NCBI GenBank assembly: GCA_016185625.1
Contig: JACPND010000033.1
Span: forward strand, 1,496-65,495
Length of the DNA: 64,000 bases
Reading direction: 5' to 3'
Source of the DNA: Candidatus Woesearchaeota archaeon
Lineage (GTDB): Archaea; Nanobdellota; Nanobdellia; Woesearchaeales; GW2011-AR9
The notes under the pieces are model-generated. The model did not search any database and was not told where the DNA came from. It saw only the letters and a program-made list of their open reading frames with translations. Position 1 is the stretch's first letter. Every line of letters begins with the position of its first letter. This document shows, one piece after another, positions 53,450 to 63,478 of this stretch. The position numbers were made by a program, and so were the translations under genes.

Positions 53450-53692
53450 TTATCGCCTCTTCTTTCGTCCTCGAGCCATCTTCGCCCGGCAGACATTTCC
53501 TTTACCGTCAATGAAATAGAGGTATCCTTTTACCTTTTTCACACCGACTTTGGCCACGAGTTCTTTCTTGACTTTTCCTTTCGTTCGGCCGGCTCTGCTC
53601 ATCGCAGCGCGGGAGACATTCCCCTGCTTATCGACGAAATACAAATACCCTTTTGCTTTCTTGACTCCTGATTTTGCTACAACTTCAGCCAT
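53450..53692 (-). CDS. small basic protein made of two tandem ~38-aa repeats (hypothetical nucleic-acid binder)
   Basis: VAKSGVKKAKGYLYFVDKQGNVSRAAMSRAGRTKG / VAKVGVKKVKGYLYFIDGKGNVCRAKMARGRKKRR. Confidence 0.4.
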   Translation of the reverse strand: MAEVVAKSGVKKAKGYLYFVDKQGNVSRAAMSRAGRTKGKVKKELVAKVGVKKVKGYLYFIDGKGNVCRAKMARGRKKRR

Positions 53693-54387
53693 GTAAATCC
53701 CTCCTTTTTTCGGTCATTCTACCGTTTTTATAGACGGAAAGAAAGGCTGATAGTATATAAAGGTTTCTGTTTTGACGACGATTACGACGTATTACTCTCG
53801 CTTGACAACTCCCTTTCACGGAGAGGGCACGCTTTGATGGCCTGTGCGCAAGATGCCAGGATCCGGCAACTTTTAAACCAAAGAGTTTTAAACTAAAAAG
53901 TTTATAATTTGTGCCATTTTGCTGTAAAGCTTTTAAAGTGTACACTATTCGACTTACCAAAGAGGTTCTTAGAGAATATTATGACTAATGCTATAGTAAA
54001 ACAAAGTACTGGTAGTCTTGAACGGGTAGTTGCACTTACCAAAGTTCCCAAGATGTGTACTGACAGAGTGTTAATGTATAGAGGGAATATTCCGCGTCTG
54101 GCAAAGAGAAGACTAAGGGGAGAGCTACATGATGACTCAGATGATGAATATTATAGACGAGGCTCAGACCACTTTCTGGTCTCCAATTGATTTTCCGTCA
54201 AGAGCAGCATTTAAAATTTTAACATCTTCTAAACCGCCAAGGACGACCATAGGACTTGACCAAGTCGTGCGAGCCGGAGGGTATACATTTGCAAAAAAAA
54301 CAGTATCAACCAGCTCTGCAAAAAGCAGCAGAAGTGATTAAGAAAGATCCAGACACGATGACGTTGATGAGATTGATGTGAAAGAAT

Positions 54388-55155
54388 TTATGAAGAAACA
54401 CCCAACCCATTCAACACACTCTCCGTCCCTAAAATTTCTTCAGCATCAAGAGCATCATTTAGATTAATCACGCCTTTCACAAACTTCTCCTGGTCGTCCA
54501 ATCCCACACGGGGACAGGCCGTATTCACCCAGATTTCTATGAACGGAAAATTCTCCAGCTGATCAAAAGAGACGACATTGTCAATAAAATAATAAAATTT
54601 CTTGTTAGGATATTTCTTTTCCAGCAGCAGCGCCGGACGGAACTGCTCCTGGCCTGGCTTAATCGTCACCATCACGCCGACAGTCTGAGCGCTCAGGAAC
54701 TTCATCAAGGCCCCTCTGTACTTTCGTAGAATCACTTTTACATCGGCAATGCCCAGCACCGTCATCTTCTTCTGGATCGGATCATTGCAGACGATTTCTT
54801 TCACCTCATTCCTCTCCTTCTGCCGATAGACTAACGCCAGCGGATGGAACTTCCCATCACCAATATAAAGATAACAATCAAGCTCTGCCAACTCTTTTTC
54901 GGACAGATTCAGCGACTGATGATAATTGTCGCAGCCCAATAACTGCCCTCGCAGATGCGTTCTGTCAGCTTTGGACGTGATTATAGTAATCCCTGCCCCT
55001 TCCAATTGTTTTTTAATCTCATCTAATGCATTCACAAACTGCACTGATGCATATAATCCGACAACAGAATATTTTTTCTTCTTCAGATAGCGCAGCGTCT
55101 CTTCTGCTAATTTCACTTCTCCAGAATACGGCGCATCAAGAAAGAGGACGTCCAT
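54388..55155 (-). CDS. dph2: diphthamide synthesis Dph2 (2-(3-amino-3-carboxypropyl)histidine synthase), domains 2-3
   Basis: GQLLGCDNY and VNTACPRVG Cys blocks, YLYIGDGKFHPLAL motif. Confidence 0.75.
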   Translation of the reverse strand: MDVLFLDAPYSGEVKLAEETLRYLKKKKYSVVGLYASVQFVNALDEIKKQLEGAGITIITSKADRTHLRGQLLGCDNYHQSLNLSEKELAELDCYLYIGDGKFHPLALVYRQKERNEVKEIVCNDPIQKKMTVLGIADVKVILRKYRGALMKFLSAQTVGVMVTIKPGQEQFRPALLLEKKYPNKKFYYFIDNVVSFDQLENFPFIEIWVNTACPRVGLDDQEKFVKGVINLNDALDAEEILGTESVLNGLGVSS

Positions 55156-55425
55156 TTACCATCCCTCTTTCTTATGAAACGGATTATGCCCCCAGGAAAT
55201 CAGCAGATCCACACCCATCCGATTCAGTCCCTGCGGAATATCACAGGCGCCGAAATTGCTTCCCAGCCAGATCAAGACCCGTGCGCCGGTTTCCGTGCGG
55301 ATTCGTTCTTCTATCTCCGCAGCCATTGGCTTCATTCCGTCCGGCAGTTGGATGCACACAGTTTTAGCCTGGCTAGACCTAATGCGGGCAATTGCTTTCT
55401 CCAGTTCTGGTTTATAAAGTGCCAT
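55156..55425 (-). CDS. dph2: Dph2 N-terminal domain as a separate cistron
   Basis: KTVCIQLPDGMKPMA...GSNFGACDIP...GVDLLISWGHN = Dph2 domain 1; in-frame TAA immediately followed by the ATG of the next cistron (TGGTAAATGGAC on the minus strand). Confidence 0.7.
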   Translation of the reverse strand: MALYKPELEKAIARIRSSQAKTVCIQLPDGMKPMAAEIEERIRTETGARVLIWLGSNFGACDIPQGLNRMGVDLLISWGHNPFHKKEGW

Positions 55426-55462
55426 CGGAAATTTTTTATACTCTTTCTTTATATAGTTTCCT

Positions 55463-56032
55463 ATGTATGGGTATACCAGGCAATTTATCGATACCTTCAG
55501 GGACTATCGCTCGGAAAAATTCGAAAACGTGGGGAAATTCTTTCTCCGTGCCGGCATTACGGCAAATAACGCTACCACGCTCTCTTTTTTGTTCGGCCTG
55601 TTCGCGGTGTATTACCTCTTTCAGAATCATCTGCTGTTTGTAATCTTCGTCCTTCTGCATCTGCTCACCGATGCGCTGGACGGCGTGATTGCCCGGGCTG
55701 CCTCGCCAACAACGTTTGGAAAATATCTGGATTACGCCACTGACCAGCTCATTCATCTGTTAACCATCGTCAAAATAGGATTTTATCTGGATGATTATTA
55801 CGCGTTCATCATTGCGGGACTCTTGATCCTGGCACAGTTAGTGTATATTCTCTCCAAGTGTACGGCCCCAGTATTATTTCTAAGAACAGTGACGTTACTT
55901 CTGCTGTCGTTGAACATACCAACACTCTCTTTTTTACAGCTGCCGACGATTGCCTATTTGGCGACGGGAGTGACAGCCGCGTACTCATTGATGCTGCAGG
56001 TGCAGTTTTACATGAAGAAAAGAGACTGGTGA
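55463..56032 (+). CDS. CDP-alcohol phosphatidyltransferase (archaetidyl-headgroup synthase type)
   Basis: D-x2-DG-x2-AR motif LTDALDGVIAR, 5-6 TM helices. Confidence 0.8.
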   Translation: MYGYTRQFIDTFRDYRSEKFENVGKFFLRAGITANNATTLSFLFGLFAVYYLFQNHLLFVIFVLLHLLTDALDGVIARAASPTTFGKYLDYATDQLIHLLTIVKIGFYLDDYYAFIIAGLLILAQLVYILSKCTAPVLFLRTVTLLLLSLNIPTLSFLQLPTIAYLATGVTAAYSLMLQVQFYMKKRDW

Positions 56033-56040
56033 AAAGCTTT

Positions 56041-56922
56041 TCATCCCATCATCGCCGGCAACACCAGTTCCTCACGCAGCGGCTGCAGTTCAAAGAGTGT
56101 CTGCCTTTTAGGAATAGTGATGCGACAGCCATGATAGGTTCTTCCCCGATAATACTCGATGCTGTGCCGCGACCAGTATTCTGCCTGCGGGTAGCCTTGC
56201 CGCAATGCTGCCAAGAACAATTCCAAAAATTGCTGTGCTGTCCGTTCCTGTGTAAATCGTGGCAAAAGAATCTCCTGTGTCCCGTGATTATTGATCCGCA
56301 ATTTATGGTCCAAAATCCCTTCCACAAAGCGCTCTACTACTTTTATATCAGCGCTTTCAACTGCCCTCTCCAAAAAATTCAAGCCCAGAGCTTCATACGA
56401 CTCATGGACCAGTCGTCCACGGGAAAGGCCCATCAATTCCAAGACACGCATATACGGCCGTCGCAGTACAAAACAGTGGGAACGCTGTGGTTTGGTAACT
56501 GTACTTCCCAGCTTATCATAAATATCTTTTCTCGATGGCGTGATCTCTGCCTTCCCTGTAACACTAATCGAACCTCCGGCAATAATTGACGCTGCGAGAT
56601 AGGCCAATCCGGGAACGGCCGCATCCTCGTCCGACAAACCCTGATGGCGAAGCAGATTCATATGATAAGGAGAAAGCGGATCTTCTCGCAGCTGGTCCAA
56701 CGAGCGGATGCTTTGCGGCTGTTGTCCCTGTTCCCACGCTTCTTTCAACTCTTTGGAAAGGAAAGGCACATCAACATCCGGAGCCTGATACTTGTGCTCA
56801 TACGGAACATGCACCAATCCGTGCGTAACCGCACTCAAATATTCCAGTCCATAATCCTGCCGTTGGCCATCAAACGACCGGATCCAATCTTCAAGTGTAA
56901 AAAGCATCAGCCGCAAAAACAA
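56041..56922 (-). CDS. hypothetical protein (293 aa)
   Basis: ORF track; the overlapping opposite-strand 243-aa ORF looks non-coding (C-rich, overlaps a lipid gene). Confidence 0.4.
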   Translation of the reverse strand: MFLRLMLFTLEDWIRSFDGQRQDYGLEYLSAVTHGLVHVPYEHKYQAPDVDVPFLSKELKEAWEQGQQPQSIRSLDQLREDPLSPYHMNLLRHQGLSDEDAAVPGLAYLAASIIAGGSISVTGKAEITPSRKDIYDKLGSTVTKPQRSHCFVLRRPYMRVLELMGLSRGRLVHESYEALGLNFLERAVESADIKVVERFVEGILDHKLRINNHGTQEILLPRFTQERTAQQFLELFLAALRQGYPQAEYWSRHSIEYYRGRTYHGCRITIPKRQTLFELQPLREELVLPAMMG

Positions 56923-60838: not shown

Positions 60839-63478
60839 TTAAATCTCCTTAATCTTCCTCAGCGTTTCTTCAAAGTATTTCTTCTTTTCTTTCAGCGCCG
60901 TGGGACTTCCGCCGCCATGCCAGGTAAAGCGCGGCCGGACTTGGATGGGAAACAGCCGTTCATTGGCATCGTCAAAGACAATCGCCGATCCGGTTACTTT
61001 GGGCAATTGATCTAATTCCTGATCTAATCCTTTGCGCATGTAACTTTGCATCAGCTGTCCCAGCGCTTCGACATCGAGACGTGCCGTCAGGCGGTGGGCA
61101 AGAACAATATCCGACTGTGTCATTACGTCAGTGTGGATTTTCCCGGGCTGCTGCGATGCCAAAATTAACGAAATGCCCGGCTGACGGCCTTCGCGTAAAA
61201 TGGTGACCAGCGCATCGGTGGCAGCAGTCTTCCCTTCTTTTGGCAAAAGTTCATGCGCTTCATCCAACCCCAGCCAGACCAATGGCTCTTCTAATTTTTC
61301 TTCTGTTTCTTTGGAAAAATAATGCAGCGCGGCATCGACAGTACGAAATTCTTCAGCTTTTCTTGCTACCATGCGTTGATTGAACAAGGAGCGGCAGATC
61401 AGGCCAACCACCAGCGCTTTGATGCTCCAGCCGGAGGCCATGACGGCATAGGGGCTTAAATCCAGCACCGTGACCTGCCCTGCGGAGATAATATCTTTTA
61501 ACGGCGTTCCTTGTTTGGAGAAAATTTCCCACTCGTGGGCTTTTTCAAACTGATTGACAACGATGCTCTTGACGACTTTGTCGCTTTCCGGATCGTTTTG
61601 AAATTCCCGGATCAACTGCTCGATTTCGTAACTGACGCCGGCTCGATTTAATCTCTGAACCACTTTTGTAATCAAGACGCCTTCGGCGGAATTGACATTG
61701 ATTTCAAAAGCATTGCACCAGTCTTCCGGATTGACATCGAGGGGTTGGATGGAGAAGGAGAAATCAGTAGGGATGCCTTCCTCTTTAAAGCGGTTGAAAA
61801 AGCCGGAGGGCGTGTAGATTTTCACAGCTAATGATTTGGGATCAAATCCCCATTGCTTGGCTAGTTCCGCATCCTGAAAGTTTGGATACTTCATCGTCCA
61901 ATAGATGCCCATAGTATCCAGAAGAACGATAGAAAGGTTTTGCTTGATTTCCGCAGGGAGATCGGATAATCCTTCAGCGATGGCGCCCAGCGAGTAGGAG
62001 TTGTGAACGATAATATCATTTGCAACAAAGTTATGTGTTTCTGGAACAGTTAAATCATAAACTTCAAATTCTCCTTCTAATAATTTCATAGAGGTGATTT
62101 CATCCCAAAAGATATCCGAACTGGCAAATTTGGAAAGCAAATCAGATTCATCGGCTAGGGCGACTTGTAGCAAGGTCTGCCGTGAAGGGGAATAATGAAT
62201 CCTTTCACGCATAGCTTTAGGATGTGCATAGCCTAATTTTCTACCAACTTCAGCCCAATTGTCTGGTCGATATAACTCCCAGATCTCTTTAGGAATAGTA
62301 TCAATGTTAGGATTTCTTTTAATGGATGGGGCTTCTTTAAGAGCAAAACAGGCCCGTTCTTCTTTTATTCCATAAAAACCAATTTCTTGTAAGTATTGGT
62401 TAACATTTTCATCATAAACTTCTAATTCATGAGACTTAAATATTTTTCCATTCAATTTAATGTTTTTATTTCTAATCTTTGAAAGAACTCCGAATCTTAA
62501 CAGTAGGTGTTGAACGCCATCAATAATTTCTTTTGAAGAAGAACAATAACTTACAAACCAATGTCCTGCTTTTTTATAAATCGTTCCGTCACATGAGAAT
62601 AACCGATTGAGGAACAGACTTAACTGATGTTTTGGCAATTGGAAGATCTCTTTTGGAATGAATTTTGTCAATGAATTTTTATTATACAAACCAAAACGCC
62701 CTATCCAGTTTCTAATGGAAGAATGAGCAAACTTGGGACCAGCATTAAATCTGCCTAAAACATCTTTTTTACTCTGCTCGGACATGACTTTTTTAATTTG
62801 ACTGACGCGGTAACAACCTTTTTTACCATGCAAATCAACTCTTAAATTAGAATCAAGATACGTTACAGACTGCTTGAATTCTTGCAATATCTTTTCATCC
62901 ATATTGGAAAAAAGCACAAAACCTTTACCTAAATGTCCCTCAGCAATCAAATAAGCTAATAATCTGATTTCATGTTCTGGCATAGAATTTTCCCCAAAAG
63001 CTTCTACTTTTCGTGGTGTCGCAATTCTAGAGCCGAAACCTAGTTTTCCGGCCGGAACCCATCCTTTTACAGTTAAAAGAGGGTGTTCTGATGTAAGTTT
63101 AATGGATCTTCCACTCCTTAAACCAATCTCGATAAGCCGGTTTACCGGTCTTTTGAAGAAGTTACTTTTCTGTCCTTGTTTAATCTTAAGATCTTCGTCA
63201 AGAGTAAAAATATCCTGATCATTATTCTCTAAATCTTTGATTTTAGCTACTGAACCATCATTGAGAGTTATGAGGGTGTCTCCGTGTAGACATTTCCCAC
63301 TTCCCCTTTTGCCGACAATAAACACCACGTGCGCACCAGCAATATCCATAAACACAGGATTGGAAAGAGATGTCGTCTGACCCATCTGGATATACTGCTT
63401 GCCGACGAGGATAGTTCCCTCTTTGCCGTATTTCTCAACGTCCTTCTTACTTCTCCCGATGATGACCTCAAAGACCAT
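60839..63478 (-). CDS. HerA/FtsK-superfamily (DUF87/AAA_10-type) P-loop ATPase interrupted by an intein
   Basis: Extein: Walker A VVFIVGKRGSGK|S (reconstituted), VLDLSPY, Walker B LVWLGLDEAHELL, REGRQPGISLILASQQPGKI...DIVLAHRL. Confidence 0.75.
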   Translation of the reverse strand: MVFEVIIGRSKKDVEKYGKEGTILVGKQYIQMGQTTSLSNPVFMDIAGAHVVFIVGKRGSGKCLHGDTLITLNDGSVAKIKDLENNDQDIFTLDEDLKIKQGQKSNFFKRPVNRLIEIGLRSGRSIKLTSEHPLLTVKGWVPAGKLGFGSRIATPRKVEAFGENSMPEHEIRLLAYLIAEGHLGKGFVLFSNMDEKILQEFKQSVTYLDSNLRVDLHGKKGCYRVSQIKKVMSEQSKKDVLGRFNAGPKFAHSSIRNWIGRFGLYNKNSLTKFIPKEIFQLPKHQLSLFLNRLFSCDGTIYKKAGHWFVSYCSSSKEIIDGVQHLLLRFGVLSKIRNKNIKLNGKIFKSHELEVYDENVNQYLQEIGFYGIKEERACFALKEAPSIKRNPNIDTIPKEIWELYRPDNWAEVGRKLGYAHPKAMRERIHYSPSRQTLLQVALADESDLLSKFASSDIFWDEITSMKLLEGEFEVYDLTVPETHNFVANDIIVHNSYSLGAIAEGLSDLPAEIKQNLSIVLLDTMGIYWTMKYPNFQDAELAKQWGFDPKSLAVKIYTPSGFFNRFKEEGIPTDFSFSIQPLDVNPEDWCNAFEINVNSAEGVLITKVVQRLNRAGVSYEIEQLIREFQNDPESDKVVKSIVVNQFEKAHEWEIFSKQGTPLKDIISAGQVTVLDLSPYAVMASGWSIKALVVGLICRSLFNQRMVARKAEEFRTVDAALHYFSKETEEKLEEPLVWLGLDEAHELLPKEGKTAATDALVTILREGRQPGISLILASQQPGKIHTDVMTQSDIVLAHRLTARLDVEALGQLMQSYMRKGLDQELDQLPKVTGSAIVFDDANERLFPIQVRPRFTWHGGGSPTALKEKKKYFEETLRKIKEI
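62000..63292 (-). other. intein (431 aa) with LAGLIDADG homing-endonuclease domain inside the Walker A motif
   Basis: Starts CLHGDTLITLNDGS right after GSGK; LAGLIDADG-like blocks LLAYLIAEGHLGKG and LNRLFSCDGTIYKK; ends ...NDIIVHN followed by +1 Ser (SYSLGAI). Confidence 0.75.

What the first reader, a model, noticed from the sequence alone, without database searches (positions are those of the whole stretch)
55140..55440. Dph2 encoded as two cistrons joined by TAA-ATG at the domain 1/2 boundary
The minus-strand sequence ...TTT CAT AAG AAA GAG GGA TGG TAA ATG GAC GTC... ends the 89-aa Dph2 domain-1 ORF (it contains the GACD Cys) and immediately starts the 255-aa domain-2/3 ORF. The two are in the same frame and separated by a single stop. 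All three Fe-S-ligating Cys are intact. It looks like a genuinely split radical-SAM Dph2 with coupled termination-reinitiation rather than random decay. A recoded stop or a sequencing error is also possible.
Basis: seen in the sequence. Interest (0 to 1): 0.55.

Follow-up and report, generated by a model that had tools for sequence, protein, structure and literature searches.

The report
Split Dph2 gene, conserved in Woesearchaeota
The diphthamide-synthesis enzyme Dph2 really is encoded here as two adjacent genes (89 aa and 255 aa), but the same split is found throughout the related DPANN archaea and has already been reported, so the finding is real but ordinary.

Summary
On the minus strand an 89-aa ORF (55425..55156) ends in TGG TAA. 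The next codon, ATG at 55155, starts a 255-aa ORF (55155..54388) in the same frame. Both ORFs match the Dph2 family. Joined together they align colinearly with solved Dph2 structures, and all three cluster cysteines are present.

This is a genuine, old gene split. It is not decay, not a sequencing error and not a recoded stop.
- All 240 listed database homologues of the two pieces are stand-alone pieces.
- In 71 related species genomes the N piece is a separate ORF ending in ...GW.
- Those junctions use TAA, TAG or TGA, and the frame offset varies; one base between stop and start is the commonest arrangement.
- In 34 of the 71, unrelated genes or other DNA of 40-2139 nt lie between the halves.
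- Both halves are under purifying selection (pN/pS about 0.25).
- Two independent assemblies reproduce the exact TGGTAAATGG junction.

A split Dph1/2 in DPANN archaea was already reported by Narrowe et al. 2018 and Podar et al. 2013, and NCBI annotates the two proteins separately.

Termination-reinitiation coupling is plausible but untested, and relatives show it is not required. The break probably lies just inside domain 1, before its last strand, not exactly at the domain 1/2 boundary.

The parts
55156..55425 (-). dph2 N piece (ORF1). It is 89 aa plus a TAA stop and encodes beta1-alpha1-beta2, the Cys loop, alpha2, beta3 and the WGH motif of Dph2 domain 1. It carries the first cluster cysteine (Cys61, TGT at 55245-55243).
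   Evidence: ORF listed. It scores 38.4 bits against PF01866 and 65 bits against TIGR00322. The exact protein is in NCBI nr as a separate 'diphthamide synthesis protein [Candidatus Woesearchaeota archaeon]' (P0271). Cys61 is kept in 71 of 72 aligned sequences. pN/pS is 0.23.
55153..55158 (-). The junction TAA ATG. The ORF1 stop (55158-55156) directly abuts the ORF2 start codon (55155-55153) in the same frame.
   Evidence: Read directly from the sequence. It is identical in two independent assemblies. The same zero-spacing arrangement occurs in relatives L031, L040 and L060. The commonest arrangement in relatives is TAA-N-ATG.
55163..55167 (-). Shine-Dalgarno-like GAGGG inside the last codons of ORF1 (GAG GGA TGG). 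The GAGG core ends 8 nt before the ORF2 ATG.
   Evidence: A match of 5 nt or more to the anti-16S-tail sequence lies upstream of ORF2 in 29 of 71 relatives, against about 7% of random window positions. The window itself has only a 4-nt match, which is weak, and the signal is confounded by the conserved E-G-W codons.
54388..55155 (-). dph2 C piece (ORF2). It is 255 aa plus a TAA stop. It encodes the probable last strand of domain 1 (VLFLDAP) and domains 2 and 3, with cluster cysteines Cys75 (TGC at 54933-54931) and Cys214 (TGT at 54516-54514).
   Evidence: ORF listed. It scores 121.4 bits against PF01866 and 130.8 bits against TIGR03682. The exact protein is in NCBI nr as a separate protein (P0001). 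C75 and C214 are invariant in alignment A1. pN/pS is 0.26.
55448..55455 (-). TATA-box-like TATATAAA, centred about 27 nt upstream of the ORF1 ATG. It lies in the 37-nt divergent intergenic region shared with the CDP-alcohol phosphatidyltransferase gene (55463..56032, + strand). It is the putative promoter of a leaderless two-gene transcript.
   Evidence: Sequence; the neighbouring gene was identified. Promoter function is inferred from the usual archaeal TATA-to-start distance and was not tested.

Best explanation
This is a genuine split gene in a Woesearchaeota (DPANN) archaeon. Dph2 is the [4Fe-4S] enzyme that uses S-adenosylmethionine to perform the first step of diphthamide synthesis on elongation factor 2. 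Here it is made as two polypeptides.

Shown:
- The 89-aa N piece carries the first cluster cysteine.
- The 255-aa C piece carries the other two cluster cysteines.
- Both pieces are conserved as separate genes across the clade and are under purifying selection.

Inferred:
- The two genes are transcribed together from a TATA-like promoter just upstream of ORF1, probably as a leaderless mRNA.
- ORF2 is translated either by ribosomes re-initiating at the ATG that abuts the ORF1 stop, or by fresh initiation on the weak GAGG motif 8 nt upstream.
- The two chains then associate non-covalently. The C piece supplies the missing last strand of domain 1, so the iron-sulfur cluster is held by cysteines from two polypeptides.
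- The active enzyme is an N2C2 equivalent of the usual Dph2 homodimer.
For:
- Both pieces match Dph2 family models, and the joined sequence is colinear with solved Dph2, with no residues missing or duplicated at the break.
- Searching with the joined sequence, the best 120 homologues (64-100% identical) are all 235-269 aa C pieces, with no fused protein among them.
- The best 120 homologues of ORF1 are all 87-103 aa stand-alone proteins.
- Among the best 150 representatives of 50%-identity clusters, which go down to 31% identity, only three (284-319 aa) align from about residue 90-105 onward and so look full-length. The rest are C pieces or fragments.
- In 71 species genomes the N piece is a separate upstream ORF on the same strand, ending in ...GW. 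The stops are TAA (44), TGA (15) and TAG (12). Spacing in the 37 adjacent cases runs from -10 to +21 nt, with +1 the commonest (16 cases). In 34 cases the halves are 40-2139 nt apart.
- The larger gaps hold unrelated genes, including UDG, a YhcG nuclease, HicB, an M23 peptidase, Bro-N and a 2'-5' RNA ligase.
- pN/pS against 62 relatives is 0.23 for ORF1 and 0.26 for ORF2, with synonymous sites saturated.
- Cys61 is kept in 71 of 72 aligned sequences.
- The junction is identical in two independent assemblies.
- An AlphaFold model of the joined chain has mean pLDDT 88, and its top 15 PDB matches are all Dph2. Residues 80-93 around the junction have pLDDT below 50, consistent with a break in a loop.
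- Published reports describe N- and C-terminal Dph1/2 genes in DPANN archaea (PMC6143161; PMC3655853).
Against: - There is no direct evidence that the two polypeptides exist, associate or are active.
- The joined sequence scores 194.8 bits against the archaeal Dph2 equivalog TIGR03682, just under its 202.8-bit cut-off.
- The AlphaFold model superposes on solved Dph2 only with TM about 0.56. Its domain packing, and therefore the exact structural context of the break, is not reliable.
- The Shine-Dalgarno-like match in the window is only 4 nt, which is common by chance (25% of random positions).
- The rest of the diphthamide pathway (EF-2 target histidine, dph5, dph6) was not looked for in this window.
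Confidence: 0.93

Rival explanations
1. Recent nonsense mutation. The gene would be a decaying Dph2 pseudogene in which a sense codon became TAA.
For: In this one genome, a single in-frame stop interrupts an otherwise colinear Dph2.
Against: The break is at the same residue in 71 other species. Both ORFs are intact there, the cysteines are kept and pN/pS is about 0.25. No fused form appears among the listed close homologues. An ATG and a purine-rich motif sit exactly where a second cistron would need them.
Confidence: 0.01
2. Sequencing or assembly error that created a false stop.
For: None beyond the a priori possibility for a metagenome-assembled genome.
Against: Two independent assemblies from different runs have the identical 131-nt junction region. 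The exact ORF1 and ORF2 proteins are each recorded on 7 contigs. Relatives share the split.
Confidence: 0.01
3. Programmed stop-codon read-through or recoding of TAA, giving one full-length Dph2 chain.
For: In this window the two ORFs are in the same frame and separated by one stop, so read-through would give a colinear Dph2.
Against: Only 3 of 71 relatives share the in-frame zero-spacing layout. Most adjacent junctions shift the frame (+1 in 16 cases, +2 in 7, -1, -4, -10). All three stop codons are used, and 34 loci have 40-2139 nt between the halves, often holding whole genes. TAA ends 33 of 70 long ORFs in the window, so it is the ordinary stop here.
Confidence: 0.02
4. The two polypeptides are joined after translation, by a split intein or other protein ligation.
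For: An intein-containing gene is present elsewhere in the window at 60839..63478, so inteins occur in this genome.
Against: The two ORFs together account exactly for the Dph2 length. There are no extra residues at the break to form the halves of a split intein. Neither ORF gives an intein match.
Confidence: 0.01
5. Only the C piece is functional. ORF1 would be a dispensable relic, or would have a different role.
For: In the two distant lineages looked at, the gene directly upstream of the C piece is not an N piece, on contigs of 1.3-1.9 kb.
Against: ORF1 is as strongly conserved as ORF2 (pN/pS 0.23 against 0.26). It keeps the cluster cysteine in 71 of 72 aligned sequences. In solved Dph2 that cysteine is one of the three cluster ligands; this point rests on my recollection of the literature, not on a tool result.
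Confidence: 0.03

Closest known systems
Split Dph1/2 (separate N-terminal and C-terminal genes) in DPANN archaea, reported by Narrowe et al. 2018, Genome Biol Evol (PMC6143161)
   Same: Dph2 is encoded by two genes for its N- and C-terminal parts in DPANN genomes. Sources name the identical proteins as coming from Candidatus Woesearchaeota, a DPANN lineage. The paper had to concatenate the two parts for its phylogeny.
   Different: Nothing essential. The paper, as far as its held text shows, does not give the break point, the junction variants or the genes inserted between the halves.
Split Dph2 of the Yellowstone nanoarchaeote Nst1 (genes Nst 222 and Nst 440), Podar et al. 2013 (PMC3655853)
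   Same: Dph2 is listed among the split protein genes of a member of the Nanoarchaeota.
   Different: In Nst1 the halves are far apart in the genome. Here they abut as TAA-ATG in one operon. Whether the break point is the same in Nst1 was not checked.
Single-chain archaeal Dph2 (P. horikoshii 3LZC/3LZD, M. smithii 6Q2D, Ca. Methanoperedens 6BXM)
   Same: The sequence is colinear, with E-values of 4e-36 to 1e-24. The three cysteine motifs are present. The joined-chain model has the same fold, and its top 15 PDB matches are all Dph2.
   Different: Those enzymes are one chain of about 320-340 residues and form a homodimer. Here the chain is cut after residue 89, so the cluster ligands sit on two polypeptides.
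Eukaryotic Dph1-Dph2 heterodimer
   Same: The enzyme is made from two gene products of the same family.
   Different: Dph1 and Dph2 are two full-length paralogues, each with its own cluster site. Here the two genes are complementary fragments of a single protomer.
Other split genes of Nanoarchaeota and DPANN (for example reverse gyrase, alanyl-tRNA synthetase and RNA polymerase subunit B in Nanoarchaeum equitans)
   Same: A conserved single-chain enzyme is encoded as two ORFs that are presumed to reassemble non-covalently (list in PMC3655853).
   Different: Different proteins are involved. Many of those halves are unlinked, whereas these are adjacent cistrons.

Membership tests
Dph2 / diphthamide synthesis protein family (Pfam PF01866, TIGR00322) | Sequence match above the curated family cut-off | tested here: met
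   Against PF01866 (cut-off 33.2 bits), ORF1 scores 38.4, ORF2 121.4 and the joined sequence 169.4. Against TIGR00322 (cut-off 35 bits) the scores are 65, 122.6 and 194.5.
Archaeal Dph2 equivalog (TIGR03682, arCOG04112) | Whole-protein score at or above the equivalog cut-off of 202.8 bits | tested here: not met
   The joined sequence scores 194.8 bits, ORF2 alone 130.8 and ORF1 alone 55.9. The joined sequence misses narrowly. Each piece alone necessarily fails.
Dph2 / diphthamide synthesis protein family | Three conserved cysteines, one per domain, that ligate the [4Fe-4S] cluster | tested here: met
   The GACD, LLGCD and TACPR motifs align with the corresponding motifs of 6q2d and 6bxm. C75 and C214 of ORF2 are invariant in A1. 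C61 is kept in 71 of 72 aligned ORF1 sequences. That these cysteines are the cluster ligands rests on the published structures, which I recall but could not read here.
Dph2 / diphthamide synthesis protein family | Dph2 three-domain fold | tested here: met
   The AlphaFold model of the joined chain has pLDDT 88 and pTM 0.82. Its top 15 Foldseek PDB matches are all Dph2, with E-values of 2e-21 to 2e-17. TM is only about 0.5-0.6, so the relative placement of the domains is not reproduced.
Dph2 / diphthamide synthesis protein family | Catalytic activity: SAM cleavage and transfer of the 3-amino-3-carboxypropyl group to the EF-2 histidine | not testable with these tools
   Needs biochemical assay of the co-expressed pieces.
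Split Dph1/2 of DPANN archaea (Narrowe et al. 2018) | Two separate ORFs that together cover the N- and C-terminal parts of Dph2 colinearly | tested here: met
   ORF1 covers Pfam positions 1-59 and ORF2 covers 79-285. The joined sequence covers 1-285 in a single stretch.
Split Dph1/2 of DPANN archaea (Narrowe et al. 2018) | The host is a DPANN archaeon and the split is shared by relatives | tested here: met
   Sources name the identical proteins 'Candidatus Woesearchaeota archaeon'. 71 of the related genome loci, labelled Woesearchaeota, Nanoarchaeota or Nanoarchaeia, have the split. A Micrarchaeota locus (L073) has the unsplit gene.
Translationally coupled cistrons (termination-reinitiation) | The upstream stop overlaps the downstream start or lies within a few nucleotides of it | tested here: met
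   TAA at 55158-55156 abuts ATG at 55155-55153.
Translationally coupled cistrons (termination-reinitiation) | Translation of the downstream ORF depends on translation of the upstream ORF | not testable with these tools
   Needs reporter or ribosome-profiling experiments. Relatives with whole genes inserted between the halves, or with no N piece directly upstream, show that coupling between the two halves is not obligatory.

The most novel reading that the evidence does not exclude
The intercistronic junction of the split dph2 may be a recurrent insertion site for cargo genes in Woesearchaeota.

In about half of the related genomes examined, unrelated genes sit between the halves. These include a UDG-family glycosylase, a HicB-like antitoxin, a YhcG/DUF1016 nuclease, a 2'-5' RNA ligase and an unknown family of about 220 aa. 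They typically abut the ORF1 stop and the ORF2 start within a few nucleotides. Several loci also carry a 90-140-nt insert that repeats the last ~25 nt of ORF1 (...TTYAAYAARAAGGTGGGATGGTAA), and so repeats the Shine-Dalgarno, stop and start arrangement.

If real, the duplicated ORF1 tail would act as a portable translation-start cassette for whatever gene lands there.

Separately, the break probably lies inside domain 1. That would make this a natural case of a radical-generating [4Fe-4S] site assembled from cysteines on two different polypeptides. As far as I know this has not been characterised biochemically.
Probability: 0.3. Interest if true: 0.35.

Novelty: already known. Interest (0 to 1): 0.15.

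Why it matters
The value is mainly practical.
- Annotators should not flag this locus as a pseudogene or a frameshift.
- Dph2 should not be used as a single-copy completeness marker for DPANN genomes, as Narrowe et al. 2018 already pointed out.

Biologically it is one more example of a conserved enzyme in small-genome DPANN archaea that works as reassembled fragments. The split enzyme could serve as a natural fragment-complementation system for studying how the unusual Dph2 iron-sulfur site is assembled. It does not open a new question.

Tried and rejected
- tRNA and Rfam scans of the window found nothing that helps identify the organism.
- A single-sequence AlphaFold run of the joined chain gave a poor model (pLDDT 42.7) and was not used.
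- An alignment mixing the joined sequence with separate N and C pieces (A2) was mis-aligned by MAFFT and was discarded.
The model finally used therefore has only 4 sequences covering the N piece (A4). Its N-domain placement is unreliable (TM about 0.56).
- I tried to read the Dph2 structure papers to get exact domain boundaries (PubMed 20559380, PMC2901178 [a guessed id], PMC3006227, PMC3066188, PMC6066404). None is held, and a full-text search gave nothing useful. The domain-boundary statement therefore remains an inference.
- No supplementary files of Narrowe et al. are held, so I could not confirm which DPANN lineages they list.
- Read-through, pseudogene, sequencing error and intein ligation were considered and rejected. 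The reasons are given under the rival explanations.
- One dN/dS script timed out and was rerun successfully.

Full report
**1. The observation**

The minus strand reads ...TTT CAT AAG AAA GAG GGA TGG TAA ATG GAC GTC.... ORF1 runs 55425..55156 and encodes 89 aa, ending ...HKKEGW followed by TAA at 55158-55156. The very next codon, ATG at 55155-55153, opens ORF2 (55155..54388, 255 aa) in the same frame.

ORF1 matches Pfam PF01866 (diphthamide synthesis) over profile positions 1-59. ORF2 matches positions 79-285. The joined sequence matches positions 1-285 in a single stretch. NCBIfam gives the same picture.

The joined sequence aligns colinearly with solved Dph2 chains 6q2d, 6bxm and 3lzc, with E-values of 4e-36 to 1e-24. 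The stop occupies a single alignment column, and nothing is lost or duplicated at the break. The three cysteine motifs, GACD, LLGCD and TACPR, are all present. The description is therefore accurate.

**2. Error, decay, recoding or a real split?**

Database searches answer this.
- Searching with the joined sequence, the best 120 homologues (64-100% identical) are all 235-269 aa C pieces. A fused relative would have scored higher than these, and none is listed.
- Searching with ORF1, the best 120 homologues are all stand-alone proteins of 87-103 aa.
- The exact ORF1 and ORF2 proteins are already in NCBI nr as two separate 'diphthamide synthesis protein [Candidatus Woesearchaeota archaeon]' entries.
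- Among representatives of 50%-identity clusters, only three of the best 150 (284-319 aa, down to 31% identity) align from about residue 90-105 onward and so look full-length. The rest are C pieces or fragments.

I then fetched 73 related loci from species-representative genomes and examined 71 in which both halves could be located.
- In every one, the N piece is a separate upstream ORF on the same strand, ending in ...GW. It is 89-90 aa in 53 of the 72 sequences, counting the window.
- The ORF1 stop is TAA in 44 loci, TGA in 15 and TAG in 12.
- 37 loci have the halves adjacent. The spacing between stop and start is +1 nt in 16, +2 in 7, +3 in 4, 0 in 3 (as in the window), -1 in 2, -4 in 2, and -10, +14 and +21 in one each. 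The commonest form, TGG TAA G ATG G, puts the halves in different frames.
- 34 loci have 40-2139 nt between the halves.

The larger gaps hold unrelated genes:
- a UDG-superfamily protein;
- a YhcG/DUF1016 PDDEXK nuclease;
- a HicB-like antitoxin;
- an M23/LysM peptidase and a Bro-N protein, both on the opposite strand;
- a 2'-5' RNA ligase;
- an unknown family of about 220 aa.

These facts exclude read-through or recoding as the way the enzyme is made in this clade. They also exclude a recent nonsense mutation.

Both halves are under equal purifying selection. Against 62 relatives, pN/pS is 0.23 for ORF1 and 0.26 for ORF2, with synonymous sites saturated (pS about 0.82). Cys61 is retained in 71 of 72 aligned sequences. 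Two independent assemblies, from runs SRR12113385 and SRR12113433, reproduce the junction region base for base, which disposes of assembly error.

The split is not universal in DPANN. A Micrarchaeota locus (L073) has an ordinary full-length gene. In two more distant C-piece loci (31-33% identity) the gene directly upstream is unrelated to Dph2, on contigs of only 1.3-1.9 kb. The halves are therefore not adjacent there, and may be unlinked.

**3. Where the break lies**

An AlphaFold model of the joined chain, built on alignment A4 (52 rows, only 4 of which cover the N piece), has mean pLDDT 88 and pTM 0.82. Residues 80-93, which flank the junction, have pLDDT below 50.

Its top 15 PDB matches are all Dph2, with E-values of 2e-21 to 2e-17. 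TM is only about 0.5-0.6, so the packing of the domains is not trustworthy.

In the model's secondary structure, domain 2 runs strand-helix-strand, Cys loop, helix, strand (YLYIG), the motif GDGKFH, helix, strand (EIVCNDP). Domain 1 follows the same order up to strand 3 (LLIS) and the motif WGH. The break comes next, and ORF2 opens with the highly conserved M-x-VLFL(D/E)AP. By analogy, that segment is the fourth strand of domain 1.

I therefore think the cut lies inside domain 1, in the loop before its last strand, and not exactly at the domain 1/2 boundary. If so, the two chains must interlock by strand complementation, and the iron-sulfur cluster is ligated by cysteines from two polypeptides. 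This is an inference. The model did not call a strand at that segment, and I could not obtain the structure papers.

**4. How it most likely works**

Shown: there are two conserved, selected ORFs that together make a complete Dph2.

Inferred:
- The pair is transcribed from the AT-rich 37-nt divergent intergenic region shared with a CDP-alcohol phosphatidyltransferase gene. A TATATAAA sits about 27 nt upstream of the ORF1 ATG, which would give a leaderless mRNA.
- ORF2 is translated as an internal cistron, either by re-initiation at the abutting ATG or through the GAGG motif 8 nt upstream.
- The Shine-Dalgarno evidence is weak in the window. A 4-nt match occurs at 25% of random positions. It is somewhat stronger across relatives: 29 of 71 have a match of 5 nt or more, against about 7% at random.
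- Stop/start overlaps and abutments are the norm among neighbouring genes in this window, so the TAA-ATG layout is ordinary operon packing.
- Relatives tolerate whole genes between the halves, so coupling between the halves is not essential.

**5. Comparison with what is known**

Narrowe et al. [quoted passage not shown] They warn against using Dph2 as a completeness marker (PMC6143161). Podar et al. 2013 list a split Dph2 (Nst 222 and Nst 440) in nanoarchaeote Nst1 (PMC3655853). The finding is therefore a correct rediscovery.

What my analysis adds is descriptive: the exact break point, its constancy across many species, the spectrum of junction types, and the gene insertions at the junction.

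**6. Verdict**

The feature is real and functional, and it is already known. Interest is low. The mildly novel residue is the apparent insertion hotspot, with a duplicated ORF1 tail, seen in relatives, and the cross-subunit cluster site, which has not been tested.

Noticed in passing
Related loci, for example L001 2281-2997, L003 1326-2999, L007 1804-2031, L025 1954-2919 (-), L065 1914-2765 (-), L072 2453-3004: In 34 of 71 related genomes the two dph2 halves are separated by 40-2139 nt. The larger gaps hold unrelated genes: a UDG superfamily protein, a YhcG/DUF1016 nuclease, a HicB-like antitoxin, an M23/LysM peptidase, Bro-N, a 2'-5' RNA ligase and an unknown ~220-aa 'MGLVDKLTELD...' family. 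These usually abut the ORF1 stop and the ORF2 start. The junction looks like a recurrent insertion site.
   Followed up: partly
L021 2865-3000; L071 253-389; L019 2181-2314; weaker in L043, L046, L048, L006: A 90-140-nt insert lies between the halves and repeats the last ~25 nt of ORF1 (TTYAAYAARAAGGTGGGATGGTAA). It can be read as a 43-aa ORF ending ...GYFNKKVGW. It contains a conserved CACCTCTTTGG segment, which resembles the complement of the Shine-Dalgarno-like junction, and a palindrome TAAACTTTGTAAAGTTTA. It looks like a decayed partial duplication of the ORF1 3' end. A regulatory hairpin is also conceivable.
   Followed up: partly
window 60839-63478 (-): An 879-aa ORF carries a large intein (residues ~63-495) with a LAGLIDADG homing-endonuclease domain. 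The host protein's C-terminal part resembles HerA-type helicases.
   Followed up: partly
window 53450-53692 (-): An 80-aa, very basic ORF made of two internal repeats (VAKxGVKKxKGYLYFxDxxGNVxRAxM). It has no Pfam or NCBIfam match. It could be a small nucleic-acid-binding protein.
   Followed up: partly
window 53700-54387: About 700 nt downstream of dph2 contain no convincing ORF, only short overlapping ORFs of 41-93 aa on both strands. There is no Rfam match. This is unusually long for a window that is about 81% coding.
   Followed up: no
window 56041-56922 (-): A 293-aa ORF (TTG start; 288 aa from the first ATG) lies between the CDP-alcohol phosphatidyltransferase and CDP-archaeol synthase genes. 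It has no Pfam or NCBIfam match.
   Followed up: partly
L076 and L077 (distant C-piece loci, 31-33% identical): In these more distant lineages the gene directly upstream of the dph2 C piece is unrelated to Dph2, on contigs of only 1.3-1.9 kb. The two halves are therefore not adjacent there. This resembles the far-apart halves reported for nanoarchaeote Nst1.
   Followed up: partly
window 55426-55462: The divergent intergenic region between dph2-N and the CDP-alcohol phosphatidyltransferase gene is only 37 nt. It has TATA-like boxes facing both ways, which suggests two leaderless transcripts from a compact bidirectional promoter.
   Followed up: no
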